Below are positions 7,960-27,110 of a stretch of 64,000 nt of DNA, piece by piece (positions within the stretch are counted from its first letter, which is position 1; each line of letters starts with the position of its first letter). Origin of the DNA: Candidatus Spongiisociaceae bacterium (GTDB lineage: Bacteria > Actinomycetota > Acidimicrobiia > Spongiisociales > Spongiisociaceae); assembly GCA_965202665.1 (NCBI GenBank), contig OZ241841.1, positions 1,760,001-1,824,000 of the forward strand. The letters are read 5' to 3'. The notes beneath the pieces were generated by a model. The model was not told the origin of the DNA and searched no databases. It was given only the letters and a program-made list of their open reading frames with translations. A program made the position numbers and the translations under genes.

Positions 7960-10674
7960 TCAGGAGGACGGGGTTGCGTCTCCGCCCGCATCCGCATCCG
8001 GATCGGGGGAGTCCGGGGAGCGGGGGGCGGCGGGGGGAACCGGGGCGAAGTAGCCGACTACCAGCAACAGCGCCCCCACCCCCAGGAAGGACACCACCCT
8101 GGTCAGGGCCCCGGTGTTGCCCAGGTCGATCAGGAAAAGTTTGACCACCACCACCCCCATCAGGGACGCCCCGGCGATCCAGCCCGCCCGCTGCGCCTTC
8201 CACTTGCCGAAGATCATCCCCCCCAGCCCGGCCAGGCCCCACAGGATGGACAGGGCGGCCTGCAAGATGGTGGAGCCGAACAGATCCCCGAAGGTGAACG
8301 GCGCCTCCCGCCAGTGGTGGACGGTGCGGGCCGCGGTCATGGTCAGCACGATCATCCCCATGGCGGCGGTCCATCCCAGCCAGTTCCGCCGCACCGCGGA
8401 CAGGGCCGGGCCTTGATAGCGGCCGGTGCGTTTCCGCCACCAGAAGGCCGCCGCAACCAGCAACACGCTCACCGCCTCCAAAGGATTAAGCAACGGAAGA
8501 TAGGGCCACGGGGCGGGGTCGCCGTCCGAGAAAATATTGAGAACCACCGCCGCTACGGCCAGCCCGGCCAGTATCGCGCCCGACCCGGAAGCGAGGTAGA
8601 TGCGCCGGCGGATCCCCAACGGCCAACCGTTTTCCCCGGCGCCGAGCAGGGGAAGGGCCGCCACCGCCAGCGCCGCCGCCAAAGAGGCCGCCGCCGGCCA
8701 GACGCCGCCGCCCGCCCGCCCGGCCAGCCAGTGAACCTCCGCCCCGATCAGCAACGCCAACCCCCAAAACCCGCCGCTGTGCAAAACGGCGAGCAATTTG
8801 GGAAACATTTCTTCCCGCAGCCGCAGGAACAGGTAGAGCGCCCCGAAGGCCAACGGCCAAGCCGCCCATCCGTAATCGTCCAACGGGTGGGAAAGATCAA
8901 ATTCGCCCCCGCTCCGCACCGCCAAAGCCAGGAAGAGGAATATCGCTATCAAAGGAAGGAGCAGGGTTCCCAGAACGTTCAATTTGGGCCAGCGCACCGC
9001 CGGTGCCGCCAGGAATCCGGCCCCCAGCGCCGCGGCGACCACAGCCATCGAACCGTACAGTTCGGCGGAGCCCAGTTGGTTGACCGCTTCCATGACCAGG
9101 CCCCCCAGCAGCCAACCCGCGCCCCAGGACATTCCCAGCCAAGCCGCCTGCGACGCGGTTTCCGATCGGTGGCGCCCCCGGTCCAGCAACCAGGCCGAGA
9201 ACAGCCCGGCGGCGGCCAGCAACAGGGCCCCCGGCAGGTAGCGGTTGGCTACCGGGAGGGCGCCGTCCGGGTAGGGGAGTTGGCCGGCGAGGAACCACGC
9301 AAAAGAAATCCCGGCCAGGATTTGCAAGGCCCCTCCCCCCGCCGCCAGCCAGAACCGGTTGCGGCGCAGGTTGAGCCACACCATCGCCGCCCCCTGCGCC
9401 GCCCACGCCGCGGCCGTGTAATAGGCGTCGAAAGCCAGCGGGACGGCCAAGGCCAGAAAAACCGCGCCCAAACCGAGGTTGGATTCGCCCAGCGGACGGA
9501 GGTTCCGGCGGGGCGAGCGGGCGATCCGCCACAGCAGAAAGCAGAAGGCGGCCAGGCCCAGGGAGCTCCACGCCGGCCCGTAAGCGATGTGCCCCGCCAG
9601 CTGGTTCTGCAAGGCGAAGAAAACAAACGGGGTGCCGAAGGTCAAAGGCCCGTCGCTTATCCAGCGGCGGAAGGGGCCGTTTTCCGGACGGCGGGCGAGC
9701 AGCAGGGGGGCGGCCATGTAGGCGGCGGCGAACAGGGCGGGGAAGGGCCAAGCGGAGGCCAGCTGGTCGACCGTGTAGCGGAACAATATCCAATGGGCGC
9801 TGATCCCGAACGTGAACGCCCAACCCAGCAGGTTGAGCTCCGGCCACGTTTTGAACCAGGCGACGAACAGGATGGCCAAGTTGAGGGCCGACAGGAAGCC
9901 GAACAGGATCAGGTGGGAGCCGTCGTCCGCCGAAATCAGGACGGGGGCCAGGAAACCGCCGATGATGCCCAGCGTCGCCAACGAGCGGGAGTTTTGGACG
10001 ATGGCCAGAACCCCCGCCGCGGCGGTGACGACCGCCACCGAAGCGAAGGCCGGCGGAGCCGCCAGAACCTCATAGAGGACCAGCGAGGCGTACACGGCCA
10101 GGTACAGGACGGCCACGCCGCCTCCCTGCAGGCTGAGGGCGTAAACCAGGTTGCGGCCCCGCACCCATAACCCGATGGCCAACATGGCCAGGCCGCACGC
10201 CGCCACTACCGCCAGCCGCATTTCCAGGGTGAGTGTGATCCATCCCCGGTTCAGGGCCGTCTGGATCAGAAACCCCAGCCCGAGCAAGGACAGGATCACC
10301 CCCACCTTCACCGGAACGTTGCCGGTGGTGAACCATCTTTTGACCGCTCCCGCCGCCCGGCCGAAGGGAGACGGACCCGAGGCGCGCGGCGGAGGCGGTG
10401 GTGGTGGTGGCGGGGTCTTCGGCTCCGCCGGGGCCGCGGCCGGGACGGGGTCGGGTTCCCGAGGCGGCGGCGCGGGCGGAGGCTCCGCAACTTCCGGTTC
10501 CGGCGACGGCGGGGCGGCCGGGGTAGGGTAGGGGGGAGCAGGCCGGCCGGATTCCAAATGTTCCACCCGACGGCGCAGGTTGGCCGTTTGGACCAACAGC
10601 ACCACCAAGAGAACCGGCCCCGCAACCAGCACGATGAACAACAGAAAAGCCAGCAAACCTATCATCCCGGGCAC
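7960..10674 (-). CDS. DUF2339-type polytopic membrane protein
   Basis: Pro-rich linker, N..VKVGVILSLLGLGF, many TMs, C-terminal KLFLIDL..LTRVVSFLGVGALLL. Confidence 0.85.
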   Translation of the reverse strand: MPGMIGLLAFLLFIVLVAGPVLLVVLLVQTANLRRRVEHLESGRPAPPYPTPAAPPSPEPEVAEPPPAPPPREPDPVPAAAPAEPKTPPPPPPPPPRASGPSPFGRAAGAVKRWFTTGNVPVKVGVILSLLGLGFLIQTALNRGWITLTLEMRLAVVAACGLAMLAIGLWVRGRNLVYALSLQGGGVAVLYLAVYASLVLYEVLAAPPAFASVAVVTAAAGVLAIVQNSRSLATLGIIGGFLAPVLISADDGSHLILFGFLSALNLAILFVAWFKTWPELNLLGWAFTFGISAHWILFRYTVDQLASAWPFPALFAAAYMAAPLLLARRPENGPFRRWISDGPLTFGTPFVFFALQNQLAGHIAYGPAWSSLGLAAFCFLLWRIARSPRRNLRPLGESNLGLGAVFLALAVPLAFDAYYTAAAWAAQGAAMVWLNLRRNRFWLAAGGGALQILAGISFAWFLAGQLPYPDGALPVANRYLPGALLLAAAGLFSAWLLDRGRHRSETASQAAWLGMSWGAGWLLGGLVMEAVNQLGSAELYGSMAVVAAALGAGFLAAPAVRWPKLNVLGTLLLPLIAIFLFLALAVRSGGEFDLSHPLDDYGWAAWPLAFGALYLFLRLREEMFPKLLAVLHSGGFWGLALLIGAEVHWLAGRAGGGVWPAAASLAAALAVAALPLLGAGENGWPLGIRRRIYLASGSGAILAGLAVAAVVLNIFSDGDPAPWPYLPLLNPLEAVSVLLVAAAFWWRKRTGRYQGPALSAVRRNWLGWTAAMGMIVLTMTAARTVHHWREAPFTFGDLFGSTILQAALSILWGLAGLGGMIFGKWKAQRAGWIAGASLMGVVVVKLFLIDLGNTGALTRVVSFLGVGALLLVVGYFAPVPPAAPRSPDSPDPDADAGGDATPSS

Positions 10675-10744
10675 CTCCCGTCGCCGATGCTAGTCCCCGG
10701 AGACAGGTGCGGGGAGCGGCTTAGTCCGCAAAACCCGCCCCCGG

Positions 10745-10920
10745 AGCCGGGGAGTCCGGGGAGCGGGGGGAACCGGGGCGAAGTAGCCGACCACCGACAA
10801 CAGCGCGCCCACCCCCGGGAAGGAAACCACCCTGGTCAGGGCCCCGGTGTTGCCCAGGTCCATCAGGAAAAGTTTGACCACCACCATCAGGGACGCCCCG
10901 GCGATCCAGCCCGCCCGTTG
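10745..10920 (-). pseudogene. Degenerate duplicate of the DUF2339 gene 3' end
   Basis: Matches ~8000-8192 with substitutions and indels (KLFLMDLGNTGALTRVVSFPGVG). Confidence 0.85.
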
Positions 10921-11001
10921 CCCTTTCGCCCGAGCCCGCCCCGATAAAAACGTTCCCCCGCCCCAAGCGCAACCCCCTAATCCCACGCGAAGAGCCCTTA
11001 A

Positions 11002-11040
11002 CAGGAGGAGCCTCCCCCGCTCAGCGGGGGAGGCCTCCTG
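11002..11040 (-). terminator. Hairpin after surface-protein copy A
   Basis: gcctcccccgct..agcggggggaggc stem; the same ~85-bp 3' block follows copies B and C. Confidence 0.7.
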
Positions 11041-11909
11041 GCGTGTTGGGTTGCGTGAAAGGCTTATCGGGTGATCTGGTAAACAGTCAGCAACCGAGGA
11101 CTGCTCCCCATAGGCGCGTCGTCAACCGTGCCCTCTTCCCTTATACCGGAGTACAGGGCACCAGATGTTTTGTCGTAGGTGGTCTGCCATCCCAGACGGG
11201 CGTTGACCCGGGGACCCAGGAACTCTTCGTCCGGGGTGCTGTCGGTAGCCCATCCGGTTGCGGGCTTCGTGAAGGTCACCACCGAACCCCGGAAGTCGCC
11301 TTCCTGTCGATAATGACGACCGGCCGCGATCTCCGAACCGTCGCTTTTGATGGCGACGTACTGGCCGAACACATCCTGATTTCTGGGAGATGATACGGTC
11401 AGATTAAATCCGGCGGTAGCCGCAATCGAATCAGCATGTTGGGCGTGTAAAACCCCCCAGCCGTCCGCATGGTCAGGCTTAACGTACACGCGCATCGAAC
11501 CGGGCACGTTAGCCTGAGCCTGGAAGTGGTTGGAGATGACGAGGGTGTTTCCATCCTCGGAGAGGGCCACGTACTTGCCAAACTCATTGTAGGCGGGTTG
11601 CGCTAAGCGGTTAGCCCATTTGGCATGGCCATCTGCATGGGTGGCGTCACCGATATCCGTCCAACCACCAGCGGGCTTGACATACAAGAATACCAATCCT
11701 AGACAGACACCGGAAGAAAGACTGCAGTGGGTGGAGGCGATCGTGTCCCCATCTCCGTCGATGGCAATGGACCGCTCGTTGTTCCAACCAGTGCCGACAA
11801 ACAACACATGAGTGTCGGCATCGGTGTGATCGTTATCGTCATCCCAATTACCGGCCGTGGGATTCGCGGGTTTTTCGTATACCAACACTGCCCCGCTGCT
11901 ATCGCTAGC

Positions 11910-12985
11910 TGTACTTGGCCAGGACGTTGGTGACGGTTTGGTTGTTGCATAAGTGAAGACCTCCTGGTGTTATGGGGAGTGAAAGCACCCTATAGCACGG
12001 GAGGAGGTCTTCAGGGATGCATGGTAACGCGAGGTCGTCGCCTTTGGGACGTTTGGGGATGGTGTTGCGGGTGATAGAAGAAGGGGAACCGGTAGCGCGG
12101 GTGGCTCGGGGGATGGGCCTGTCCCGGCAGTGCGTGTCCAAGTGGGTGCGCCGCTACCGGGAAGAAGGCCAAGCCGGTTTGGAAGACCGGTCGTCTCGGC
12201 CGCGTTGTTCCCCTATGCGTACCAGCCCGGAGGTGGAAGAGCTGGTGCTGCGGGCGCGGCGGCGGTTGCGGGCGGGGCCCGCTCGGTTGTCGGCGTTTAC
12301 GGGGGTGCCGGAGCGGACGATCAGCCGTATCCTCCGCCGCCATGGAGTGTTGCGTCTGTGGGAATGCGACCCGCTGACCGGCGAACCGCTCAAGTCCCCT
12401 CCCGGGCCGGTGGTGCGGTATGAACGGGACAGGCCTGGTGAGTTGCTGCATATGGATGTTAAGAAGCTTTCTTCCATACCGCCCGGCGGGGGATGGAAGG
12501 TACACGGCCGGGGCAACGCCCCCGCCAGCGGAGCGGGATGGACTTTTGTGCACTCTGTCGTGGACGACTACACCCGCCTCGCCTACTCCGAAACGCTATC
12601 AGACGAGAAAGGAACCACCGTCGCCGCGTTCACCGCCCGCGCCCTCAACCACTTCCGCCAACTAGGCATAACCCACATCGCGGAGATCATGACCGACAAC
12701 CACTGGAGCTACACCCGCAGCCGCCTATTCTCTTCCCTGCTCGCCCAGCACGACATCCGTCATATCACGATCAGACCGTATCATCCCCAGCAGAACGGCA
12801 AAGTGGAACGATACAACCAAACCCTCAAACGAGAATGGGCCAACTCCCAATCCTGGCCCGACAACCAAACCCGAAACCAAGCCCTCCGCCACTGGCTCCA
12901 CTACTACAATAACCACCGGCCCCACTACAGCCTCGGAGGCAAACCACCAACCTCCAGACTGTAACCAACCTATTGGCCATGTACA
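11910..12985 (+). mobile_element. Complete IS481-family element
   Basis: 25-bp imperfect IRs tgtacttggccaggacgttggtgac / gtaaccaacctattggccatgtaca; 6-bp TSD GCTAGC at 11904-11909 and 12986-12991. Confidence 0.95.
12017..12964 (+). CDS. IS481-family DDE transposase
   Basis: MHGNAR..HTH..RYERDRPGELLHMDVKKL..VDDYTRLAY..MTDN..PQQNGKVERYNQTL. Confidence 0.95.
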   Translation: MHGNARSSPLGRLGMVLRVIEEGEPVARVARGMGLSRQCVSKWVRRYREEGQAGLEDRSSRPRCSPMRTSPEVEELVLRARRRLRAGPARLSAFTGVPERTISRILRRHGVLRLWECDPLTGEPLKSPPGPVVRYERDRPGELLHMDVKKLSSIPPGGGWKVHGRGNAPASGAGWTFVHSVVDDYTRLAYSETLSDEKGTTVAAFTARALNHFRQLGITHIAEIMTDNHWSYTRSRLFSSLLAQHDIRHITIRPYHPQQNGKVERYNQTLKREWANSQSWPDNQTRNQALRHWLHYYNNHRPHYSLGGKPPTSRL

Positions 12986-13430
12986 GCTAGCCGGTGCTGC
13001 TACTGCGATGGTGGAGCCGTCGGAGGATATGGCAACCCCCTCCCCGAAACCATGGTTGAAGGGGTTGGTAGCAGACGGTTCTAGGGTGGCGTCTAGCGAC
13101 CAAGTGCCATTGCTTTGACGGGTGTAGACATAGACTTTTTTGAGTCCTTCTCGGCTTCCGACTACTACCGTGTCGCCGCTGATGTCCACATCCCACCCGA
13201 AGTAACCATTTTGCATGATGGTTGGGGGGGTGAGTTTGACGATGGCGCTGGCGGCGGTGTTCATCCCGTTGGGGTAGATGTACACCATCCCCGCCCTAGT
13301 ACGCGTCACGTCATCTGCAGCATCGTTGTTGCCCATGTCGTCTACAACGCTTTCGTAAGAGGCTCCGACGACTATTACTCCGTTGTCGGCTGCTACGGCT
13401 TGCCCGTAGCGGGCGATGGCCCCGGCCCTG

Positions 13431-14996
13431 GCCCCGTCGGGGTGGTTGAGGCTGGGCCATTCCTCCTGCAAAGCGAAGGTGCTGACTTTGCCCGCTTCGT
13501 CCTGGTAGGCGGTTACTTTCAGGTGAGCCCCCGCCGGGTCGGCGTCCTCCGCTAAGGGTTTCTCGAACTCGGCCATCACGGTGGGTCCGTCGAAGTTGGA
13601 GAACTGGTCGTTGGCGTCGTATTTGACCAGCATCAGTTTCTCCTCAGCGGCTACTACCAGCTGGTCGTTGTCGGGGTCTTTCACCAGGATGCGGCCGGTG
13701 AACGGCGCCCCGTCCGGTTCCTCCACCCAGTAATGGTAGACACGAGCCTCATGGGAGTTCAGATCAATGTCGACGCCGTCGTTTTCAGGCCGATCTTCGC
13801 TACCGTCCGCTACTCCCACCACCTCGCTGAAGGTGGCCCAGATGGTTTCGATGACGCTGTCGGTGCTGTCGTAGTTGTAACCGAGGTTGGCCCGGCCGTC
13901 CCGTCCGGTGGTCCGCGTATACCGGCCCGTACCCGACAGCGTACGCTTCCCGCCGGATGAGCCGACGGTGATACCGGCGGGCGCGGTGGAACCCACCCCC
14001 AAAATAACGGAGCAATCCGCGTCCTCATCTTTGGCCTTGGTGCACAAAGAGTCGGAAAGGAAACTGATCCGTTTGCCGCGTACTGGGTCGCCGAACTGGT
14101 CGGTCAGTGTGGCCGTGACCGTGTTGCCGGCCCCTTGGCCTTCGTCCGACGCCAGAACGAACTCGTTGCGGGATGTGACCGTCAGCGTGGCCGGCCTCGG
14201 CGCTTCGTCCGACCAGCTGTAGGTGTCGGAGGAGAAGTCGCTTCCGTCCTCGTTTTTGAACGGCAACCCGGCCGGCGGGTTGGTCAACGTCAACGTCACC
14301 GTCGCGCTGTCGCCGGTGTTGGTGCTGGGATCGGTTTGGGTGAATTCCAAAACGATTTTCCCGTCGGCGTCGGTCGTCATGCTGTTGGTGGAGGACGTGG
14401 TGTTGTCCCCCACCGTAGTGCTCTGCGCGACGGTTACCCGTTTGCCTTTGTCGGCTACGGCTTTGTCGTCCGGGTCGGCGATTTGGATGGTGACGGTGAC
14501 GGTTTCCCCGAACTTGGAGCGGGTCTGCCCTTCCTCCAAGTTGTCGGTCACCAAAGTTTGGGTGGCCGCTTTGGAGAACCCGACGGTCAGTTGGGCGCGG
14601 GTGGTGTCATCGGAGTCGAACTTGTCGCCCCGGTCGCCGGTCCAGGCCCACACCGTCGCGTCCGCGTCCGTGATCTGCAAGGACAAATCGGTGAGGTCCC
14701 CCGACGCGTCGGTGGTGCTGTCCCCCAAATCCACCTCGCACGCCGTCTGCCCCACTTGCCCCACCCGATTCACATTCGCCGTAACGCACGCCCCGTCGTC
14801 CCCGAACGCCTCATCCGCGTCAGCGGAACGGAACACGTCCACCGACGCGTCCTGCACCGGCTGGAAGTTCACATCCCGCACCGACACAATCAACGGCACG
14901 CCCTGCGCCCCCAGCACCATATCCTGCTCGCTCTGAATCGACACCCCCGCCGGACGGGCGATGGTATGCGCAAACGCCCGGGTGATGAACGACGCC
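13431..14996. repeat. Constant block of cassette A: direct repeat of 21689-23254; its part 14065-14996 is an inverted repeat of 16844-17775
   Basis: Constant 8258-bp offset to copy C; alternative-frame ORF translations are identical; only one mismatch spotted (14969). Confidence 0.92.
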
Positions 14997-15074
14997 GAAT
15001 ACATCGGAGCGAAATCAATGTCCTCCTCCTTACCATGCGTCCCCACCGCACCCGGAGGAGAAACCCCCAACCGA

Positions 15075-15400
15075 ACATCAAGCGGGCGCACCGCCACCGG
15101 CAGGAGAGGAAGACCGGTCTGGGAAGACCGGTCATCGCGGCCGCGCGTTCCCCGGGCGTGCGCCACCCCAGCGACGGAAGAAGAACAGGTGTTACGCACG
15201 CGGCGGGCCTTCCCGAGCGGGTTGCCGACGTCGATGGGCAGCCGGGGAGCTGGCTATCAACCGCATCCTCCGCCGCGATGGGAAACGCTACTCTGCAGGA
15301 ATCCGATCAGCTGACCGGCGAGCCGCTCAGAACCAGTCCCGGGCGGATGGTGCGGCATGAGCGCGGCAGGCCGGGAAAGTCGCCGCACAGGAACGTTGAC
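15075..15400 (+). mobile_element. Degenerate IS481 remnant capping the 5' end of cassette A
   Basis: Resembles ~12140-12460 (gaagaccggtc..cggccgcg; VRHERGRPGK versus VRYERDRPGE). Confidence 0.75.
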
Positions 15401-15998
15401 AACCGTCTTGTTTTGAACCCCTTCACCGGCTCGCGGTGCCCGCGCTGAATGAAACCACCACCCGGATTTGAAATCGACGAACAGATGGCGAGGCGGCGGA
15501 CAGGCGGATAGCCGACTGTCGATGAAGCTGTCCTCCGTCCCCAACTGGAAAATGCCTACCGGAAGGCCGTTCGCATCCCAGCCCCTCGTCAGACCGCGCA
15601 AAGCCCGCTTCCGTCGTCATCCGCAGTTCGTCCAGTCGTCTGCCCCGCTTCGCCGCGGGGCGACGAGGCGGGTGAGAACTTGGCGGGAGTCTGGCCGCCC
15701 TCCTTAATACATGGGACCCGCTCTCCGCTCCGAAGTGCCGGCTCATCCATCTCGCAACTGAGCAAACGCCCGCTCCCCGCTTGTTGGAACCGAAACGCGG
15801 CCGAGCGAACCTACCGCACCGTTCTTGGGCCGCCGATGTTTGCGCCGGGCGGCCGGCGGGCCGGCGGGAGGCGTCGGCGCCGGTTGGGATGGCGTTGGAG
15901 AGCCCGGCGCGGCGTGCGGTTTTGCCGTCCCGGCCAGCGGCCGCGACCGGCTTCTCGGGCCGGGCCGAAAATCGTTTTAAGAAATTTCCGATTTTGAC

Positions 15999-16026
15999 TT
16001 GACAAGTTTTTTGGGGACGCTAATGT
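15999..16026 (+). promoter_or_regulatory. Sigma70-type promoter of copy B (TTGACA-N16-TAATGT)
   Basis: Perfect -35 at 15999; TANNNT at 16021; AAAATCG/CGATTTT inverted repeat just upstream; RBS gaaggag at 16101. Confidence 0.65.
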
Positions 16027-16115
16027 ATCGCGTGTTGAGGCGTAGGCCCCGGTATTGCCCTCCGGTAGCCAGCGTGTTAGGCAAACGAAAAATGGGCTTG
16101 GAAGGAGTAGTCGTG

Positions 16116-19100
16116 ATGGCGAAAGTGTCGGGTCGGGTTTGGATGGTGGGTCTTTTAGTGTTGGGTTTGGTGGTGAGTTTGTTGGGGGTTTCTCCTCCGG
16201 GTGCGGTGGGGACGCATGGGGAGGAGGAGGACATTGATTTCGCTCCCATGTATTCGGCGTGCGTGGGGCGGGCGACGGATTCGGCCGGTTTTGAGGACAC
16301 GGCGGGCATCGGCGCGGAGGAGGCGATTGATTGCTTGTTCCATTATGGGATCACGAAAGGCCGGTCGGAGACCATGTACGCTCCGTCGGAGTCGGTGCTG
16401 CGGTGGCAGATGGCCCTGTTTTTGGCCCGGGCGTCGATGGCGGCGGGGATCGTGTTGGACAACCCGGCTGAGGATCAGGGGTTCACGGACATCAGCGCGG
16501 TGTCGGAAGAGGCCCAAAACGCCATCAACGGTTTAGCCAAAGAAGGGATCATGCCCGGCACGTCCGCGACGACGTTCAGCCCGAATTCGTCAGTGAACCG
16601 GGGTTCCATGGCGATGCTGCTGGACGCGTTCCTTTCCAAGGCCACTCCGGGGACGGGGGCGTTCGGGGAAGCGACGGAGAAGTACGCGGATGTAAAAGCC
16701 GACAACTTCAACGTGTTCACGGATGTGAACACGGTGTCGCTGAACACCTACAACGCCATATACCGCATTTACGAGCTGGGGGTCACGAAAGGGGTGGCGG
16801 AACATCAGTTCAACCCGGCCGGGCTGGTAACGCGGGGGCAGATGGCGTCGTTCATCACCCGGGCGTTTGCTCATACCATCGCCCGTCCGGCGGGGGTGTC
16901 GATTCAGAGCGAGCAGGATATGGTGCTGGGGGCGCAGGGCGTGCCGTTGATTGTGTCGGTGCGGGATGTGAACTTCCAGCCGGTGCAGGACGCGTCGGTG
17001 GACGTGTTCCGTTCCGCTGACGCGGATGAGGCGTTCGGGGACGACGGGGCGTGCGTTACGGCGAATGTGAATCGGGTGGGGCAAGTGGGGCAGACGGCGT
17101 GCGAGGTGGATTTGGGGGACAGCACCACCGACGCGTCGGGGGACCTCACCGATTTGTCCTTGCAGATCACGGACGCGGACGCGACGGTGTGGGCCTGGAC
17201 CGGCGACCGGGGCGACAAGTTCGACTCCGATGACACCACCCGCGCCCAACTGACCGTCGGGTTCTCCAAAGCGGCCACCCAAACTTTGGTGACCGACAAC
17301 TTGGAGGAAGGGCAGACCCGCTCCAAGTTCGGGGAAACCGTCACCGTCACCATCCAAATCGCCGACCCGGACGACAAAGCCGTAGCCGACAAAGGCAAAC
17401 GGGTAACCGTCGCGCAGAGCACTACGGTGGGGGACAACACCACGTCCTCCACCAACAGCATGACGACCGACGCCGACGGGAAAATCGTTTTGGAATTCAC
17501 CCAAACCGATCCCAGCACCAACACCGGCGACAGCGCGACGGTGACGTTGACGTTGACCAACCCGCCGGCCGGGTTGCCGTTCAAAAACGAGGACGGAAGC
17601 GACTTCTCCTCCGACACCTACAGCTGGTCGGACGAAGCGCCGAGGCCGGCCACGCTGACGGTCACATCCCGCAACGAGTTCGTTCTGGCGTCGGACGAAG
17701 GCCAAGGGGCCGGCAACACGGTCACGGCCACACTGACCGACCAGTTCGGCGACCCAGTACGCGGCAAACGGATCACGTTCACCTCCGACACTCTGTGCGT
17801 GAAGAAGCAACCGACTGACGCGGAGTGCGTCACGCACGGCGTGGGCGCCAACAACTACATGCGCACCACCGGACGGGACGGCCGGGCCAACCTCGGTTAC
17901 AACTACGACAACACGAACAGCGTCATCGAGGCCATCCGGGCCACCTACACCTACGTCGGCACCGAGGGAGTGCGGGGAGTGGTCGACACCACCGACCCCC
18001 TTCCCATGGGCGACCCGAAGGACGAGACCGTGTTGACGTCTGAGCCCGTTCACCATTACTGGGTGGAGGAACCGACCGGGGACCCGTTCACCGGGCGCAT
18101 CTTGGTGAAAGACCCCGACAACGACCAGGTGGTGGTAGCCGCTGAAGAGAAACTGATGCTGGTCAAATACGACGGGAACGACCAGTTCAACCTCGAGTCG
18201 GGAACCACCATCTTCTCCGAGTTCGAGAAACTGCTGGAAGAAAACGCCGACCCGGCGGGAGCCCACCTGAAGGTAACCTCCTACGAAGACGCCGCCGCCG
18301 ACGTTAGCGTCTTCACCGTACAAGAAGAATGGCCCGGCCTAGACCACCCCGCAGGCGCCAACGGCCGCTTCAACTACCCAATCGTGGTAGCCGACAACGG
18401 CATAATCGTCGTCGGGCATTACCTTGAGACGGTGACGTCGGGCGGCACCCAGATGCCACATGCGGGCGCAGTTTACATTTATCCGAACGGGATGGACACC
18501 GCCGCGAACAATATCGTGAAGCTGACCGCCCCCACTCCTTTCGCTTGCGGGTATTTCGGATATGATGTGGACATCACCGACAACACGGTGGTAGTCGGCA
18601 ACGCGTTCGTCGGCATCGACTCCGGTAGGTTGCGTCCGGTGGTGGGATTGGGCGAGGGTCAAACTTGCGCTATGTCCTCCTCCTATGAGAAAAAGGTCTA
18701 CGTGTACACCCGCACAGATAGCGGATGGCCCATCGACGCCACATTTACCAGCGTCGATGCCCAGAACAACACTGGTTTCGGGGAGGGGGTGGCTATCTCC
18801 TCCGATGGTTCCACCATCGCGGTGGTAGGACCCGGCTCGAATAATAATGGGGCCGTGTTCGTGTTCGAGAAGCCCCAAACCGGAGGCTGGGTGGACAACA
18901 CCACCGCCGGTCAAGGCCGTCTGAGGGGCGGTGGCGGCGATGGGGTCGGATGGATTCGAACCGAACGGTCTGTCGCTATCTCCGGGGACGGTTCGGTAAT
19001 CGCCGCTGGCGGTTGCAACAACGAAGGCAGCACCGGCACGTGCGGAGGGTGGCTGTATGTGTACGAGAAGGACCCCACCGCCAGCTGGGACGGGGTCACC

Positions 19101-19694
19101 AAAGCCGATGGCGACGCCCGCTTCCTGGCCTATGAGGGAACGGGTGATCCTAATGTCGCTACCGATTACGGTCAAGGGCGGCAATCTAGACATGAGTTCG
19201 CCAAGTACGTGGCGCTCTCCGACGACGGAACCGTGTTGGTCGCCTCCGGGCACTACCGAGCTGAGGCTGAAAAGCCGGGGGAAGTGTACGTGTGGAACAA
19301 ACCGGAAACAGGCGGCTGGAGAGTGCATCACATCGATCGGCGGCTACCCGGCATGACCCCCAACGTTGGCTTCAAGTTGAAGGTCTCGTCTCCCCGTAAC
19401 AGCGACGTGTTCGGACAATACATCGCCGTAACCGGCGACGGTTCGGAGATAGCCGCTTCCCGCCACTACCGGCAGGAAGGCACCTTCCGGGGTTCGGTGG
19501 TGACCTTCAAGCGTCCCGCCGACGGCGCCTGGGCAAACGACAGCACACCCGACGACGAGTACTTGGGTCCCTATGTCCGAGCCCACCTGGGGTGGCAGAC
19601 CACCTACGACAAATCCAACAGTGATCTATACACCGCGGTGTCCGCGGCCAATGATATGGAAAGCCCGCTTTCCATCTTCAAGATCACCCGATAA
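16116..19694 (+). CDS. Surface/S-layer protein copy B (signal peptide, 3 SLH domains, Ig-like stalk, FG-GAP beta-propeller); the only copy with expression signals
   Basis: MAKVSGRVWMVGLLVLGLVVSLL signal; three F.D..AI..L...GI..G....F.P...V.R.QMA SLH repeats; TVTATLTDQFGDPV Ig-like segment; FGYDVDI..VVVG, GFGEGVAISSDGSTIAV and GAVFVF repeats. Confidence 0.9.
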   Translation: MAKVSGRVWMVGLLVLGLVVSLLGVSPPGAVGTHGEEEDIDFAPMYSACVGRATDSAGFEDTAGIGAEEAIDCLFHYGITKGRSETMYAPSESVLRWQMALFLARASMAAGIVLDNPAEDQGFTDISAVSEEAQNAINGLAKEGIMPGTSATTFSPNSSVNRGSMAMLLDAFLSKATPGTGAFGEATEKYADVKADNFNVFTDVNTVSLNTYNAIYRIYELGVTKGVAEHQFNPAGLVTRGQMASFITRAFAHTIARPAGVSIQSEQDMVLGAQGVPLIVSVRDVNFQPVQDASVDVFRSADADEAFGDDGACVTANVNRVGQVGQTACEVDLGDSTTDASGDLTDLSLQITDADATVWAWTGDRGDKFDSDDTTRAQLTVGFSKAATQTLVTDNLEEGQTRSKFGETVTVTIQIADPDDKAVADKGKRVTVAQSTTVGDNTTSSTNSMTTDADGKIVLEFTQTDPSTNTGDSATVTLTLTNPPAGLPFKNEDGSDFSSDTYSWSDEAPRPATLTVTSRNEFVLASDEGQGAGNTVTATLTDQFGDPVRGKRITFTSDTLCVKKQPTDAECVTHGVGANNYMRTTGRDGRANLGYNYDNTNSVIEAIRATYTYVGTEGVRGVVDTTDPLPMGDPKDETVLTSEPVHHYWVEEPTGDPFTGRILVKDPDNDQVVVAAEEKLMLVKYDGNDQFNLESGTTIFSEFEKLLEENADPAGAHLKVTSYEDAAADVSVFTVQEEWPGLDHPAGANGRFNYPIVVADNGIIVVGHYLETVTSGGTQMPHAGAVYIYPNGMDTAANNIVKLTAPTPFACGYFGYDVDITDNTVVVGNAFVGIDSGRLRPVVGLGEGQTCAMSSSYEKKVYVYTRTDSGWPIDATFTSVDAQNNTGFGEGVAISSDGSTIAVVGPGSNNNGAVFVFEKPQTGGWVDNTTAGQGRLRGGGGDGVGWIRTERSVAISGDGSVIAAGGCNNEGSTGTCGGWLYVYEKDPTASWDGVTKADGDARFLAYEGTGDPNVATDYGQGRQSRHEFAKYVALSDDGTVLVASGHYRAEAEKPGEVYVWNKPETGGWRVHHIDRRLPGMTPNVGFKLKVSSPRNSDVFGQYIAVTGDGSEIAASRHYRQEGTFRGSVVTFKRPADGAWANDSTPDDEYLGPYVRAHLGWQTTYDKSNSDLYTAVSAANDMESPLSIFKITR
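16164..17775. repeat. 1612-bp inverted repeat shared by copies B (16164-17775) and C (22323-23934)
   Basis: Paired coordinates sum to 40098 throughout; matching alternative-frame ORFs translate identically. Confidence 0.93.
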
Positions 19695-19718
19695 GCCTTT
19701 CACGCAACCCAACACGCC

Positions 19719-19756
19719 AGGAGGCCTCCCCCGCTTAGCGGGGGAGGCTCCTCCTG
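19719..19756 (+). terminator. Hairpin after copy B
   Basis: ggaggcctcccccgcttagcgggggaggctcctcc. Confidence 0.7.
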
Positions 19757-19799
19757 TTAAAGCGGCTCTTGTTTTAGGGGGGAGTTAGAGGTTAAGGGG

Positions 19800-20231
19800 G
19801 TTGCGTTTGGGGCGGGGGGCGAGCGTTTTATTGGGGCGGGGTGGGGCGGCGGCCGGTCAGCTAACGTTCATAGCCGTGCCGGACGGTCGCCCCGGAGCCG
19901 TCCAGCCTTTCCAGCGACGGAACTGCGTATTTGCGGGTCAGCCCCATCGCGTCCCGGAAGGCGGCCACCGTGAACCGCTCCGGCAAGTCGCCCAAGCGGG
20001 CCAGAAGTTCTTCAATCTGTTCGGGCAGATAGACCAGATGGTCGGAGATCCGCACCAGCCGGCCTTCCCGCACCAGGATGTGCACCGGGTTCCGGGTCCG
20101 CCCGCAGTTCCGCCACCCGGGGGGCTTGCAGCCCTGCCCCCCGCAACTCCCGCTGTATGCGTTCCCGCTTGGCGTTTTCCCCCTCTCGGAAGGCGAGGGC
20201 GAAACCGGCCTCCGCCACCGCCGAACCCCTT
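19800..20231 (-). pseudogene. Degenerate duplicate of the selB 3' end
   Basis: Matches ~27090-27510 (HILVREGRLVRISDHLVYLPEQIEELLARLGDLPERF) with frameshifts and a premature stop. Confidence 0.88.
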
Positions 20232-20329
20232 GCTGAAGATCGTCCCTCGTATTTAGAGGCGATGACAGCCAGTAGCGACCCCCGCCCTAAACCAGCGCAA
20301 CCCCCTAATCCCACGCGGAGAGCCCTTAA

Positions 20330-20368
20330 CAGGAGGAGCCTCCCCCGCTGAGCGGGGGAGGCCTCCTG
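20330..20368 (-). terminator. Hairpin after copy C
   Basis: Same stem as after A and B. Confidence 0.7.
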
Positions 20369-20391
20369 GCGTGTTGGGTTGCGTGAAAGGC

Positions 20392-23300
20392 TTATCGGGT
20401 GATCTGGTAAACAGTCAGCAACGTGCCGGCTTCGACAGACTCTCGTATCCCGGAGTACAGGGTGCCGGAGGTCTTGTCGTAGGTGGTCGCCCATCCCATA
20501 CGGGCGTTAACCCGGGGACCCAAGAACTCTTCGTCCGGTGTGCTGTCGGAGGCCCATCCAGTAGCGGGCTTCGTGAATGTCACCACCGAACCCCGGAAGT
20601 CGCCTTCCTGCCGATAATGACGACCGGACGCGATCTCCGAACCGTCGCCTTTGATGGCAATGTACTGGCCGAACACATCCTGGTTTCTGGGGGACGACAC
20701 GGTCAGATCAAATCCTGTTGTCGCTTCCTCCGAATCCGCTTGAGTGTCAACGTGCCAACTTTCCCAGCTCGTGCCGGGCCTGACGTACACACGTATCGTC
20801 CCGGGCACATTTCTAGGACTAGTCTGACCCTGGTAGTGGTTGGAGACGACCAGGGTTGTCCCGTCATCGGTGAGAGCCAAGTACTTGGCAAACTGAGTTC
20901 CGCTACCACCCATTCCGCGATTGCGGATGCGAGCACCGTCGGTTCCTGAACCTCCGTCGGACTGGTCCGCCCAGCCGCCAGCAGGCTTCTTATACACGTA
21001 TATCCATCCTCCGGTATTGCCAGCGGCGATCGTCTCCCCATCCCCGGAGATAGCAATGGCCCGTTCGTTGCTATAGCCATTCCCGATTCTCAGTTCAGGT
21101 TCATCAGCGTGAGTGGCATCGGCAGCCCAGCCCGTGCCGGGCTCTTCATATACCACTATCCTTCCTTCGTTGCCCTGGTCGTCAGCCCCGATCACCGCAA
21201 TGGTGGAACCGTCGTCGGATATGGCAACTCCCTCTCCGAACCCCTGGCCGAAATCGGCATTCTCAGTACTCGGATTCGGGGACAATATCTTAGTAGTGGT
21301 GGTCGGCCAACCAGCACTCTCCTTTTCATAAATGTAGACCTTCCGCAACCCTCTTTGCCCCGCGGGCAACTGATGGTGGTATCGGGTTCCGACGACGATG
21401 GTGTCGCCTGCGATGTCCACGTCGTGTCCGAAGAAGCCGTTGGCTACGATATCCGTGGCTGGGGGGGTAAGTTTGACGATGTTGCCGGCGGCGGTGTTCA
21501 TCCCGTTGGGGTAGATGTACACCATCCCCGCGTTAGTACGCGTCACGTCATCAGTTTCCATGCAAGTGGCCAGAGCGTCGCGGCAGGAGCCCATTTGCAC
21601 CACAATGGTTTCTCTGGGGGCTCCGACGACTATTACTCCGTTGTCGGCTGCTACCGCCTCCCCAAATCTGGCGGCGGCTCCGTCTTCTGCCCCGTCGGGG
21701 TGGTTGAGGCTGGGCCATTCCTCCTGCAAAGCGAAGGTGCTGACTTTGCCCGCTTCGTCCTGGTAGGCGGTTACTTTCAGGTGAGCCCCCGCCGGGTCGG
21801 CGTCCTCCGCTAAGGGTTTCTCGAACTCGGCCATCACGGTGGGTCCGTCGAAGTTGGAGAACTGGTCGTTGGCGTCGTATTTGACCAGCATCAGTTTCTC
21901 CTCAGCGGCTACTACCAGCTGGTCGTTGTCGGGGTCTTTCACCAGGATGCGGCCGGTGAACGGCGCCCCGTCCGGTTCCTCCACCCAGTAATGGTAGACA
22001 CGAGCCTCATGGGAGTTCAGATCAATGTCGACGCCGTCGTTTTCAGGCCGATCTTCGCTACCGTCCGCTACTCCCACCACCTCGCTGAAGGTGGCCCAGA
22101 TGGTTTCGATGACGCTGTCGGTGCTGTCGTAGTTGTAACCGAGGTTGGCCCGGCCGTCCCGTCCGGTGGTCCGCGTATACCGGCCCGTACCCGACAGCGT
22201 ACGCTTCCCGCCGGATGAGCCGACGGTGATACCGGCGGGCGCGGTGGAACCCACCCCCAAAATAACGGAGCAATCCGCGTCCTCATCTTTGGCCTTGGTG
22301 CACAAAGAGTCGGAAAGGAAACTGATCCGTTTGCCGCGTACTGGGTCGCCGAACTGGTCGGTCAGTGTGGCCGTGACCGTGTTGCCGGCCCCTTGGCCTT
22401 CGTCCGACGCCAGAACGAACTCGTTGCGGGATGTGACCGTCAGCGTGGCCGGCCTCGGCGCTTCGTCCGACCAGCTGTAGGTGTCGGAGGAGAAGTCGCT
22501 TCCGTCCTCGTTTTTGAACGGCAACCCGGCCGGCGGGTTGGTCAACGTCAACGTCACCGTCGCGCTGTCGCCGGTGTTGGTGCTGGGATCGGTTTGGGTG
22601 AATTCCAAAACGATTTTCCCGTCGGCGTCGGTCGTCATGCTGTTGGTGGAGGACGTGGTGTTGTCCCCCACCGTAGTGCTCTGCGCGACGGTTACCCGTT
22701 TGCCTTTGTCGGCTACGGCTTTGTCGTCCGGGTCGGCGATTTGGATGGTGACGGTGACGGTTTCCCCGAACTTGGAGCGGGTCTGCCCTTCCTCCAAGTT
22801 GTCGGTCACCAAAGTTTGGGTGGCCGCTTTGGAGAACCCGACGGTCAGTTGGGCGCGGGTGGTGTCATCGGAGTCGAACTTGTCGCCCCGGTCGCCGGTC
22901 CAGGCCCACACCGTCGCGTCCGCGTCCGTGATCTGCAAGGACAAATCGGTGAGGTCCCCCGACGCGTCGGTGGTGCTGTCCCCCAAATCCACCTCGCACG
23001 CCGTCTGCCCCACTTGCCCCACCCGATTCACATTCGCCGTAACGCACGCCCCGTCGTCCCCGAACGCCTCATCCGCGTCAGCGGAACGGAACACGTCCAC
23101 CGACGCGTCCTGCACCGGCTGGAAGTTCACATCCCGCACCGACACAATCAACGGCACGCCCTGCGCCCCCAGCACCATATCCTGCTCGCTCTGAATCGAC
23201 ACCCCCGCCGGACGGGCGATGGTATGAGCAAACGCCCGGGTGATGAACGACGCCATCTGCCCCCGCGTTACCAGCCCGGCCGGGTTGAACTGATGTTCCG

Positions 23301-23934
23301 CCACCCCTTTCGTGACCCCCAGCTCGTAAATGCGGTATATGGCGTTGTAGGTGTTCAGCGACACCGTGTTCACATCCGTGAACACGTTGAAGTTGTCGGC
23401 TTTTACATCCGCGTACTTCTCCGTCGCTTCCCCGAACGCCCCCGTCCCCGGAGTGGCCTTGGAAAGGAACGCGTCCAGCAGCATCGCCATGGAACCCCGG
23501 TTCACTGACGAATTCGGGCTGAACGTCGTCGCGGACGTGCCGGGCATGATCCCTTCTTTGGCTAAACCGTTGATGGCGTTTTGGGCCTCTTCCGACACCG
23601 CGCTGATGTCCGTGAACCCCTGATCCTCAGCCGGGTTGTCCAACACGATCCCCGCCGCCATCGACGCCCGGGCCAAAAACAGGGCCATCTGCCACCGCAG
23701 CACCGACTCCGACGGAGCGTACATGGTCTCCGACCGGCCTTTCGTGATCCCATAATGGAACAAGCAATCAATCGCCTCCTCCGCGCCGATGCCCGCCGTG
23801 TCCTCAAAACCGGCCGAATCCGTCGCCCGCCCCACGCACGCCGAATACATGGGAGCGAAATCAATGTCCTCCTCCTCCCCATGCGTCCCCACCGCACCCG
23901 GAGGAGAAACCCCCAACAAACTCACCACCAAACC
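20392..23934 (-). CDS. Surface-protein cassette C: uninterrupted frame but lacking promoter, RBS and signal-peptide N-terminus (probably silent)
   Basis: Identical to B from GLVVSLL to PVRGKRI, then a different propeller; upstream lie poly-C runs and an IS481 remnant. Confidence 0.85.
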   Translation of the reverse strand, partial: GLVVSLLGVSPPGAVGTHGEEEDIDFAPMYSACVGRATDSAGFEDTAGIGAEEAIDCLFHYGITKGRSETMYAPSESVLRWQMALFLARASMAAGIVLDNPAEDQGFTDISAVSEEAQNAINGLAKEGIMPGTSATTFSPNSSVNRGSMAMLLDAFLSKATPGTGAFGEATEKYADVKADNFNVFTDVNTVSLNTYNAIYRIYELGVTKGVAEHQFNPAGLVTRGQMASFITRAFAHTIARPAGVSIQSEQDMVLGAQGVPLIVSVRDVNFQPVQDASVDVFRSADADEAFGDDGACVTANVNRVGQVGQTACEVDLGDSTTDASGDLTDLSLQITDADATVWAWTGDRGDKFDSDDTTRAQLTVGFSKAATQTLVTDNLEEGQTRSKFGETVTVTIQIADPDDKAVADKGKRVTVAQSTTVGDNTTSSTNSMTTDADGKIVLEFTQTDPSTNTGDSATVTLTLTNPPAGLPFKNEDGSDFSSDTYSWSDEAPRPATLTVTSRNEFVLASDEGQGAGNTVTATLTDQFGDPVRGKRISFLSDSLCTKAKDEDADCSVILGVGSTAPAGITVGSSGGKRTLSGTGRYTRTTGRDGRANLGYNYDSTDSVIETIWATFSEVVGVADGSEDRPENDGVDIDLNSHEARVYHYWVEEPDGAPFTGRILVKDPDNDQLVVAAEEKLMLVKYDANDQFSNFDGPTVMAEFEKPLAEDADPAGAHLKVTAYQDEAGKVSTFALQEEWPSLNHPDGAEDGAAARFGEAVAADNGVIVVGAPRETIVVQMGSCRDALATCMETDDVTRTNAGMVYIYPNGMNTAAGNIVKLTPPATDIVANGFFGHDVDIAGDTIVVGTRYHHQLPAGQRGLRKVYIYEKESAGWPTTTTKILSPNPSTENADFGQGFGEGVAISDDGSTIAVIGADDQGNEGRIVVYEEPGTGWAADATHADEPELRIGNGYSNERAIAISGDGETIAAGNTGGWIYVYKKPAGGWADQSDGGSGTDGARIRNRGMGGSGTQFAKYLALTDDGTTLVVSNHYQGQTSPRNVPGTIRVYVRPGTSWESWHVDTQADSEEATTGFDLTVSSPRNQDVFGQYIAIKGDGSEIASGRHYRQEGDFRGSVVTFTKPATGWASDSTPDEEFLGPRVNARMGWATTYDKTSGTLYSGIRESVEAGTLLTVYQITR

Positions 23935-23967
23935 GGGGGGGGGGGGGGCGGCGGGGGGGGGGGGGGG
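23935..23967. repeat. G14-CGGC-G15 tract at the 5' junction of cassette C
   Basis: Direct reading of sequence. Confidence 0.85.
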
Positions 23968-24576
23968 CCGCTACCGGGAGGAAGGTGAGGCTGGTTTGGG
24001 GAAGACCCGTCGTCGCGGCCGCGTGCCCCCGGCCGCGCGCCACCCCAGCGGTAGAAGAAGAACAACAGGCGTTACGCGCGCGGCGGGCGTTCCGGACGGC
24101 CAGGCCGGTTATCCGACGTTGATAGGGCGCCGGGAAGACGGCTATCAACCGCACCCTCCGCCGCTATAGGAACATTGCTCAGTAGGAACGCCATCAGCCG
24201 ACCAGCAAGCCGCTCAGAACCAGTCCCAGACGGGTGATGCTGCACGAACGCAGCAAGTCGGGAAAATCGCCGCTGGACCCGTTGGAGCCAGTGGCGGAGG
24301 GCTTGGTTTCGGGTTTGGTTGTATCGCTCTACTTTGCCGTTCTGCTGGGGATGATAGGGTTTGATCGTGATATGACGGATGCCGTGCTGGGAGAGCAGGG
24401 AAGCGAATGCTCGGCTGCGGGTGTAGCTCCAGTGGTTGTCGGTCATGATCTCCGCGATGTGGGTTTATGCCTAGTTGGTGGAAGTGGTGGAGGGCGCGGG
24501 CGGTGAACGCGGCGACGGTGGTTCCTTTCCCGTCCGGCAACGGCTCGGAGTAGGCGAGGCGGGTGTAGTCGTCCAC
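23968..24576. mobile_element. Rearranged IS481 remnant (5' part on +, catalytic part inverted on -)
   Basis: 23968-24280 resembles ~12150-12450; the minus strand of 24285-24576 gives DDYTRLAYSE..GTTVAAFTARAL..MTDNHWSYTRS..PQQNGKVERYNQT with a frameshift and a deletion. Confidence 0.85.
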
Positions 24577-24786
24577 AGTCCCAGCCTGAATTAGGATGTC
24601 CAGGTTTCCAGGCCATCAGCAGGCACCATCATCCAGGCTGTATATGACCTCTGGTTCAGCCTGTGCCTGGTCAGGCTGATAGTGGTCTGTGGCATACACA
24701 GGCAACAGGTATCTGACCTGCTGTTTGTTGGATGTAGCAGGTTTCTGCTGTGGATGGCCGCAATGAGGGGGGCTAGGCTCTGCTGG

Positions 24787-25235: not shown

Positions 25236-25325
25236 TCCTGCTCCTGGATGGCCTGCTGGATGGCCCGCACGGTGGCAAACTGGATTGCCATTTGGATGTT
25301 CTGCTGGTCAGACATCAGGCCTGTC

Positions 25326-25550: not shown

Positions 25551-25733
25551 CAGCCTATCCTGATTATCTGCTCTGCCTGGTTCTGCGTCAGGCCTGTGCG
25601 GTCAGTGCTATCAGTCCATCATCAGGCAGGACAGGAATAGTCAGGCAATTACCTGACATCCGAACCTGACGGAGCAGACCCTTGGTCTGGTCAGAGCCTG
25701 ATAGATGTGGCCTGACAGACTGGTCTGGCGCCA

Positions 25734-27044: not shown

Positions 27045-27110
27045 GGTTCTTCGCGTTTGAGGGGGGAGTTGGAGGTAAGGGGGTGACGCTGGTTTGGGGC
27101 GGGGGCGCGT

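What the first reader, a model, noticed from the sequence alone, without database searches (positions are those of the whole stretch)
11064..23934. Candidate surface-protein switching locus: one expression site flanked by two silent cassettes in inverted orientation
Seen: three homologous SLH / Ig-like / FG-GAP-propeller genes arranged A(-), promoter, B(+), C(-). Only B has TTGACA/TAATGT, an RBS and a full signal peptide. B and C share a 1612-bp inverted repeat (16164-17775 / 22323-23934); B and A share a 932-bp inverted repeat (16844-17775 / 14065-14996). After these blocks the 3' halves differ. A crossover within the B/C repeat would flip ~17.8-22.3 kb and fuse C's propeller in frame to B's promoter, signal and SLH domains. 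A crossover within the A/B repeat would flip the promoter-plus-N-terminus segment onto A's propeller. Known: this is the logic of the Campylobacter fetus sap locus (one promoter, conserved 5' ends, RecA-dependent inversion). Inference: a recombinase-free system that varies an integrin-alpha-like propeller on the cell surface. I know of no description of this in Acidimicrobiia-like actinobacteria.
Basis: partly seen in the sequence, partly recalled or inferred. Interest (0 to 1): 0.92.

Follow-up and report, generated by a model that had tools for sequence, protein, structure and literature searches.

The report
Invertible surface-protein switch in sponge symbiont
A sponge-associated actinobacterium carries three inverted versions of a surface-protein gene of which only one has a full export signal and a predicted promoter, and another strain encodes the two swapped versions, so this DNA likely flips to change which integrin-like tip the cell displays, a strategy known mainly from pathogens.

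Summary
Observation largely confirmed, with corrections. The B/C repeat is 1612 bp with 0 mismatches and the B/A repeat 932 bp with 1; contig depths show three real copies. Key new evidence: another strain encodes both reciprocal products of the A/B inversion, B's signal+SLH on A's intact propeller and A's silent SLH-less leader on B's propeller (proteins only; DNA not seen). A tail-to-tail pair with a 100% identical 5' block and one promoterless copy recurs in 2 more of 29 family genomes, and 3 of 4 silent copies start right behind an extreme C-rich (G4-like) tract. No recombinase lies nearby. Best reading: a homologous-recombination inversion switch, like C. fetus sap and L. acidophilus slp, in Ca. 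Spongiisociaceae. Switching within a population, expression and RecA dependence are untested. New variant of a known kind.

The parts
10735..10927 (-). duplicated 3' fragment of the neighbouring DUF2339 gene (left edge of the inserted block)
   Evidence: 86% to 7992-8200; DUF2339 by Pfam
10998..11063 (-). terminator-like hairpin behind A, 98-99% identical to those behind B and C
11064..11909 (-). cassette A, 3' part of the propeller
   Evidence: FG-GAP_2; in frame with the 5' part once the IS is left out
11910..12985 (+). IS481-family element inserted in A's propeller (transposase 12017-12964; target duplication GCTAGC); absent from A in other strains
   Evidence: IS-free A in a 1133-nt contig of runs X12 and X14 and in P0124, P0002
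12986..15071 (-). cassette A, 5' part: 80-bp signal stub, in-frame 588-bp SLH deletion at 14992-14996, Ig-like stalk, start of propeller; no promoter-like site, no start codon of its own signal
14065..14996 (.). 932-bp arm, inverted to 16844-17775 (A/B crossover substrate)
13431..14996 (.). 1566-bp direct repeat with 21689-23254 (A/C; deletion or conversion substrate)
15079..15397 (+). decayed IS481 remnant capping A; the source of the junk leader seen on P0001
15954..16026 (+). predicted expression-site promoter: A/T-rich UP-like stretch, TTGACA, 16 nt, TAATGT; no poly-G tract
   Evidence: upstream 45 nt scores 36 against the sister species' promoter, at most 21 against 24 poly-G promoters
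16116..19694 (+). gene B, 1192 aa: signal peptide, SLH anchor, Ig-like stalk, seven-bladed-type propeller (residues about 737-1192)
   Evidence: Pfam; model pLDDT 81.8; best structural match integrin alpha headpiece, Z 30.5, rmsd 3.2, 349 aligned
16164..17775 (.). 1612-bp arm, inverted to 22323-23934 (B/C crossover substrate)
19758..20231 (-). duplicated 3' fragment of selB with an ISL3-like end, between the B and C terminators
   Evidence: 90% to 27039-27513; SelB by Pfam
20392..23934 (-). cassette C: open frame from inside the signal peptide through SLH, stalk and its own propeller (54% aa to B's, 66% to A's)
23935..23967 (+). G14-CGGC-G15 tract directly abutting the 5' end of C's identity block (C-rich on C's coding strand; G4-like)
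23961..24576 (.). IS481 remnants capping C (23961-24273 homologous to the one capping A; 24283-24576 inverted piece)

Best explanation
This is likely a homologous-recombination inversion switch: one predicted promoter with a full signal peptide and SLH anchor sits between inverted partial copies, and a crossover in the kilobase-long identical blocks would put a different integrin-alpha-like propeller on the exported, wall-anchored protein. Shown: the anatomy; three real copies; both reciprocal A/B products encoded in another strain; the same kind of pair in two more species; open frames in the silent copies. Inferred: A/B crossover flips the promoter-signal-SLH module (at least 14997-16843) so A is expressed and B becomes the silent SLH-less copy; B/C crossover flips 17776-22322 and gives an in-frame 1196-aa B-C fusion; the host's general recombination machinery (two recA copies) does it; gene conversion keeps the 5' blocks identical; the A/C direct repeat can delete the promoter irreversibly. 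In this genome the A state would be a truncated protein because of the IS481. The site works beside at least 9 paralogs that are probably switched on and off by poly-G slippage; the invertible site is the one whose promoter lacks the slippery tract.
For: (1) P0124 (1195 aa): first 244 residues identical to B, then A's stalk end and propeller (23 differences in 949 positions, no IS). P0001 (1017 aa): A's IS-remnant leader and SLH deletion (64 of 65 residues after the start match A), then B's 3' part (11 differences in 948). Both are on record on an ENA contig of 23,156 nt and share a private E>D change in the repeat and an identity block that runs about 6 codons further than in this genome, so they come from another strain in which the two copies recombined. 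(2) 5' blocks are 99.9-100% identical while the IS remnants capping A and C are 74-79% and propellers 54-66% aa identical; nearest other paralog 84%. (3) Sister species G001: tail-to-tail pair, 2624 bp exact, one copy with a homologous non-poly-G promoter, the other promoterless and cut inside the signal, at a different locus (selB and DUF2339 are neighbours there). L088 (other genus): tail-to-tail SLH/Ig pair, 883 bp exact, one copy promoterless by inspection. Such pairs: 2 of 55 loci from 21 other genomes; 3 of 29 family genomes incl. this one. (4) Silent frames are open and diverged with dN/dS 0.25-0.44 in 4 of 5 pairs, 0.77 in X/Y. (5) Promoter:SLH:Ig contig depths near 1:2:3 in runs of two other studies (X12 385-423:736:1105; X5 20:34:50). 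(6) No recombinase found among 51 window ORFs scanned; genome has 2 tyrosine recombinases >900 kb away, 0 serine resolvase, 0 large serine recombinase, 1 partial IS110-type hit, 2 recA (94% complete).
Against: The DNA of the 23,156-nt contig was not seen; equal contig length is the only sign that both proteins lie on one contig, and a mis-join at the repeat is not excluded. No B-signal + C-propeller protein was found among the 146 proteins checked. Contigs cannot phase a 0.9-1.6 kb repeat, so no within-population switching was shown. A is IS-broken in this genome and in run X3. The block is full of IS debris and gene fragments, as expected of unstable duplicates. P0002 (truncated leader + SLH + A propeller, genome of 2,764,661 bp) cannot arise by inversion alone; it needs conversion or A/C deletion. 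Long exact tandem duplicates also occur in relatives without this architecture (G004 2459 bp, G009 3811 bp). 26 of 29 family genomes show no such pair (many fragmented).
Confidence: 0.63

Rival explanations
1. Unstable duplicate cluster without a switching role: recent duplications and allele imports left long repeats that RecA occasionally inverts, converts or deletes; different strains are fixed for different accidents.
For: IS481/ISL3 debris, selB and DUF2339 fragments around the block; IS insertion in A; the A/C direct repeat invites loss of the promoter, which P0002 and the uneven depths in run X14 (A propeller 21.7, promoter 6.1, C propeller 6.1) would fit; the family has 12 other signal-bearing copies; exact tandem duplicates occur in G004 and G009.
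Against: Same tail-to-tail, promoterless, 5'-identical design at unrelated loci in three species of two genera; in both species of this genus it is tied to the one promoter lacking poly-G; silent frames stay open at 17-46% aa divergence; A's SLH deletion junction is kept across strains.
Confidence: 0.21
2. Silent copies are donors for non-reciprocal gene conversion into the expression site (pilS/vls-like), possibly started at the G4-like tract; inversion is incidental.
For: Conserved 5' blocks and 98-99% identical terminators flank the variable propellers; P0002 and P0004 are mosaics; a strain-private change is shared by both copies; extreme C-rich tract before 3 of 4 silent copies; G4-initiated conversion is known at Neisseria pilE (PMC4412290, passages).
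Against: P0124 and P0001 are a reciprocal pair, which one crossover explains and conversion explains only by two events; the tract lies before the silent copy, not the expression site.
Confidence: 0.08
3. Assembly artefact: either this triplet or the swapped proteins come from mis-joins at the repeats.
For: Repeats of 0.9-1.6 kb are typical mis-join sites; the swapped pair is known from one contig length only.
Against: Depths in the likely source run fit three copies; 1:2:3 depth ratios recur in two other studies; the swapped proteins carry their own substitutions, so they are not a re-join of this genome's reads. This does not exclude a mis-join within that strain's own assembly.
Confidence: 0.05
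4. A site-specific recombinase acting in trans (one of the two XerC/D-like genes) does the inversion at a short site within the repeats.
For: Two tyrosine recombinases exist; Xer1 drives Vpma inversion in Mycoplasma agalactiae (PMC5634654, passages).
Against: Identity blocks are 0.9-2.6 kb with different ends in each case, and the block end differs between strains; no short shared site was sought or seen; the recombinases are >900 kb away.
Confidence: 0.03

Closest known systems
Campylobacter fetus sap locus (S-layer variation by promoter inversion)
   Same: One promoter on an invertible segment between inverted homologs with conserved 5' and variable 3' parts (PMC3971579 passage: 8-9 cassettes expressed by an inversion that moves the promoter; titles of Dworkin & Blaser 1996/1997 and Tu et al. 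2001 seen).
   Different: Only three copies; silent copies lack a start and most of the signal, and A lacks the anchor domain, so the flipped module carries promoter + signal + SLH; Sec-type signal rather than a type I exporter inside the element (sap detail recalled); 12 paralogs elsewhere have their own signals, 9 with poly-G promoters; actinobacterial sponge associate.
Lactobacillus acidophilus slpA/slpB
   Same: Active and silent surface-protein genes interchanged by inversion of the segment (title of Boot et al. 1996 seen; facing orientation and shared 5' region recalled); matches the B/C, G001 and L088 pairs.
   Different: Identity blocks here are 0.9-2.6 kb; product is an SLH-anchored stalk with a propeller, not a known lattice protein; third cassette on the other side; B/C flip not observed.
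Neisseria gonorrhoeae pilE/pilS with its G4 motif; Borrelia vls
   Same: Expression site plus truncated silent copies, recA-type recombination, G-rich tract at the edge of the recombining block (PMC4412290 passages).
   Different: There the G4 is upstream of the expressed gene and exchange is non-reciprocal; here the tract abuts the silent copy and the best evidence is a reciprocal pair.
Integrin-alpha-type beta-propellers in bacteria; eukaryotic-like proteins of sponge symbionts
   Same: FG-GAP_2 above cut-off; predicted fold closest to integrin alpha headpieces; bacterial integrin-type propellers are described (PMC3192720 abstract); some eukaryotic-like proteins alter digestion by sponge cells (PMC13747020 passages).
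   Different: No DxDxDG calcium motif in B or C; margin over WD40 propellers is under 3 Z units; ligand unknown.

Membership tests
C. fetus sap-type inversion system | homologous cassettes with conserved 5' and variable 3' parts | tested here: met
C. fetus sap-type inversion system | single promoter between inverted homologs | tested here: met
   for the trio; promoter predicted by homology, not by the strict scan
C. fetus sap-type inversion system | both orientations occur | tested here: inconclusive
   reciprocal A/B proteins in another strain; DNA and spanning reads not seen
C. fetus sap-type inversion system | that promoter is the only expression site of the gene family | tested here: not met
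   12 paralogs with full signals, 9 with poly-G promoters
C. fetus sap-type inversion system | silent cassettes are complete genes; exporter genes inside the invertible element (recalled) | tested here: not met
   A and C lack start and signal n-region; 15072-16115 holds an IS remnant and the promoter
C. fetus sap-type inversion system | RecA involvement; product forms an S-layer lattice | not testable with these tools
   two recA copies present
L. acidophilus slpA/slpB-type pair | tail-to-tail active and silent gene with identical 5' region (recalled beyond the title) | tested here: met
   B/C; G001; L088
L. acidophilus slpA/slpB-type pair | inverted state detected | tested here: inconclusive
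   no B-signal + C-propeller protein among 146 checked; contigs cannot phase
Neisseria pilE G4-initiated conversion | G4 motif upstream of the expression locus | tested here: not met
   tract abuts silent copies (G000 C, G001 X, L088), not the expressed ones
Neisseria pilE G4-initiated conversion | tract folds into G4 and is needed for recombination | not testable with these tools
   sequence score only
Site-specific invertase switches (Hin/FimB/Xer1/Piv) | linked recombinase gene and short crossover sites | tested here: not met
   none among 51 window ORFs scanned; genome-wide; repeats are kilobase-long
SLH-anchored surface protein | signal peptide and SLH repeats | tested here: met
   B: SLH 76.6 bits vs cut-off 20.8; signal read from the sequence; A lacks SLH
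Integrin-alpha-type propeller | FG-GAP repeats and closest fold integrin alpha | tested here: met
   Z 30.5, rmsd 3.2, 349 aligned, first 33 rows integrins, WD40 at 27.8
Integrin-alpha-type propeller | calcium-binding DxDxDG-type motifs in the blades | tested here: not met
   0 matches in B and C

The most novel reading that the evidence does not exclude
Sponge-symbiotic Spongiisociaceae run a two-tier surface-variation programme: a poly-G slippage regulon over about 24 promoters, plus one slippage-proof expression site whose integrin-alpha-like propeller is swapped by frequent inversion that is initiated at G-quadruplex tracts placed at the edge of the silent copies, tuning recognition by a host that has no adaptive immunity (or by phage).
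Probability: 0.22. Interest if true: 0.88.

Novelty: new variant of a known kind. Interest (0 to 1): 0.7.

Why it matters
Recombinational switching of surface proteins is textbook for pathogens facing antibodies. Here it appears in an uncultured sponge associate, acts on a domain predicted to resemble the host-type integrin alpha propeller, recurs in three species, and is supported by reciprocal products in another strain. It gives a concrete, read-countable test of whether sponge symbionts vary their surface against host phagocytes or phage, and a second natural setting in which to test G4-linked recombination. My 10 literature searches listed no paper on such a switch in sponge symbionts or Acidimicrobiia; the library holds open-licence papers only.

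Tried and rejected
No RNA holder listed for the stretch. Contig laying could not phase the repeats in 8 runs of 21 listed. Parts without cover, which prove nothing alone: B's propeller in X12 (bins 9, 0, 0 against about 400 elsewhere), C's propeller in X5 (0-4 against about 20), A's 5' part in X3. JGI metagenome scans found no relative (0 of 34 stretches; 0 matches); the single-protein genome scan likewise (0 of 42). The search for the expression-site protein of the 2,764,661-bp genome failed: no cluster looked up (28 proteins) and no shorter protein (23 hits, best 71%) supplied it. No other strain of G001's pair was found. Orthology of B with G001's Y could not be shown from coding sequence: 5' halves group by species (A left out), propellers are unresolved (fast method). 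The single-sequence fold was poor (pLDDT 47.8) and is not used. The wide structural search was busy and not repeated; one search is only a second look at Foldseek's hits. Tu et al. 2001 was not held, so sap and slp details beyond titles and one review passage are recalled. PMC13436318 (passages) and PMC11706023 (0 hits for six terms) added nothing. The convergent pair in G004 has two full signals and no long identity, so it was not counted. Strain-allele mis-assembly of this window was rejected on depth. No supplementary files were opened.
Full report
Observation. The repeats are as described. B/C (16164-17775 / 22323-23934) is 1612 bp with no mismatch, B/A 932 bp with one; they are 2 of the 3 inverted repeats of 500 bp or more at 98% or more in the 2.77-Mb single-contig genome. 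B (16116-19694) has a ribosome-binding site, signal peptide, SLH, an all-beta stalk and a propeller. A model built on 60 aligned relatives (pLDDT 81.8) matches integrin alpha headpieces best over residues 737-1192 (Z 30.5, rmsd 3.2, 349 aligned; WD40 at 27.8; Foldseek TM 0.58-0.61 by target), without DxDxDG calcium motifs. Relatives are titled Ca. Spongiisociaceae / Acidimicrobiia, and 5 of the 19 holding runs are labelled sponge metagenome (one of them, X5, was laid).

A is split by a complete IS481 (11910-12985) and has lost its SLH repeats by an in-frame 588-bp deletion at a 5-bp microhomology; with the IS left out its frame is open. A and C share a 1566-bp direct repeat and are both capped by the same decayed IS481 piece (74-79% alike). 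The block carries fragments of selB and DUF2339; in sister species G001 these two genes are near neighbours, so the block is an insertion, and 10955-20231 and 20279-27513 look like an old tandem duplication whose 5' coding blocks were later homogenised (inference). Twelve more propeller-bearing paralogs lie elsewhere, all with full signal peptides, 9 behind a TTGACA-(poly-G)-TAGCGT-type promoter. Genome-wide 24 such promoters have spacers of 15 (8), 16 (11) or 17 (5) nt, and G/C runs are bimodal (96 of length 8, 1 of 9, 0 of 10, 66 of 11-13). B's promoter lacks the tract. I saw this before consulting the scan's notes, which had recorded the poly-G promoters for another gene array of this genome (e1-1114776, e1-1114777).

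Is the triplet real? In run X1, likely the source sample and so no independent support, contigs with no differences have depth 107.5, 91.8 and 96.9 on the three propellers, 90 on the promoter, 108-127 on the flanks and 195.6 on the SLH block. Alleles of different strains would sum to the flank depth; they do not. Promoter:SLH:stalk depths near 1:2:3 recur in runs of two other studies. A is IS-free in a bridging 1133-nt contig of X12 and X14.

Does it rearrange? The protein search with B (244 hits, 120 listed) and cluster look-up returned P0001 and P0124, both recorded on an ENA contig of 23,156 nt. P0124 is B's first 244 residues unchanged, then A's 3' part, intact (23 differences in 949). P0001 is A's IS-derived leader and SLH deletion, then B's 3' part (11 differences in 948). 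These are the two products of one crossover in the A/B repeat. Both share a substitution absent from this genome's three copies, and their common block extends a few codons further, so they belong to another strain and its copies have exchanged sequence. Limits: only proteins were seen, co-location rests on equal contig length, and a mis-join in that assembly is possible. P0002, from a 2,764,661-bp genome, has C's truncated leader and SLH on A's propeller; inversions among the three copies leave the leftmost propeller in place, so this needs conversion or an 8258-bp deletion between the A/C direct repeats. No B-signal + C-propeller protein was found among 146 proteins.

Does the design recur? 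G001 has, beside a tandem array of poly-G-promoter paralogs, a tail-to-tail pair identical for 2624 bp and 74-97% alike beyond; one copy has a promoter homologous to B's, with the same A/T-rich upstream stretch and no pure G run, the other is promoterless and cut inside the signal. L088, from another genus, has a tail-to-tail SLH/Ig pair without propeller, identical for 883 bp from the leader on, one copy lacking the promoter-like sequence. That is 2 of 55 loci in 21 other genomes and 3 of 29 family genomes; many of the rest are fragmented. In 3 of 4 silent copies the 30 nt before the identity block are among the most C-rich windows of their background (fraction <0.00001, 0.0003, 0.00002; A and the three expressed copies are ordinary). 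This was noticed after the fact, the backgrounds for G001 and L088 are fetched loci only, and the tracts may be relics of G-rich leaders or IS ends; G4-initiated recombination (PMC4412290, passages) is a lead, not a result. Variable parts diverged with dN/dS 0.26-0.44 (A, B, C), 0.25 (L088) and 0.77 (G001 pair) and no stops.

Mechanism. No recombinase was found among 51 window ORFs scanned (a selection of the 183 ORFs); the genome has two tyrosine recombinases far away, no serine recombinase by two families, one partial IS110-type hit, NucS and two recA copies 96% alike. Kilobase blocks with variable ends point to general homologous recombination (inference). A/B crossover moves promoter, signal and SLH onto A; B/C crossover gives an open 1196-aa fusion; in this genome the A state ends after 999 aa. 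I give 0.63 to a maintained switch, 0.21 to neutral instability of duplicates, the rest to conversion-only, artefact or a trans-acting recombinase.

Comparison. It works like C. fetus sap (PMC3971579 passage; titles in PMC1950947, PMC4902306 and PMC5634654 reference lists, one of which says sap inversion also occurs without RecA) and like L. acidophilus slpA/slpB (title only), but fails membership of the sap system: it is not the family's only expression site, its silent copies are incomplete, and no exporter lies in the element. Papers seen: passages of PMC5634654, PMC3971579, PMC1950947, PMC13436318, PMC13747020, PMC4412290, PMC4902306; abstract and outline of PMC3192720; a term search of PMC11706023; listings for the rest. 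Ten searches listed no report of such a switch in sponge symbionts. Verdict: real, a new variant of a known kind, with cross-strain support for inversion and no proof yet of live switching; interest 0.70.

Noticed in passing
G000 genome-wide (e.g. C1:1460524, 1579484, 1947347, 486774-514331): 24 promoters with a G11-13 tract in the -35/-10 spacer (15-17 nt) before two SLH gene families; 76 G/C runs of 9 or more with a gap at 9-10, many before other genes: a large contingency-locus set. The same promoter type is in G001.
   Followed up: partly
L017:14413-14425 (G001 paralog): A 13-G run inside the signal-peptide codons puts the gene out of frame, while allele P0025 is in frame: a second slippage switch or a homopolymer error.
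   Followed up: partly
G000:C1:132747-133532 and 1276312-1277097: Two full-length recA copies, 96% identical in DNA.
   Followed up: partly
window 24580-26340: Low-GC island (46-55%) between the IS481 and ISL3 remnants, with two short ORFs without Pfam match.
   Followed up: no
G000:C1:2093918-2094015: An isolated 98-bp signal-peptide stub (85% to B's) directly upstream of another paralog's promoter.
   Followed up: no
G000:C1:1652233-1676484: Open frame of about 8083 codons ending in SLH repeats; frames of 7254-9515 codons with the same ending in G001, G004, G009, G013.
   Followed up: no
G000:C1:1041185-1042375 / 2035689-2036879: A 1191-bp exact inverted repeat about 1 Mb apart.
   Followed up: no
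L018:13482-18353: Several nested tandem repeat arrays upstream of the sister species' expression-site promoter.
   Followed up: no
window 3948-4949: Repeat-containing secreted-looking protein with weak CARD and DUF2680 matches beside a two-component pair; longer repeat version in G001.
   Followed up: no
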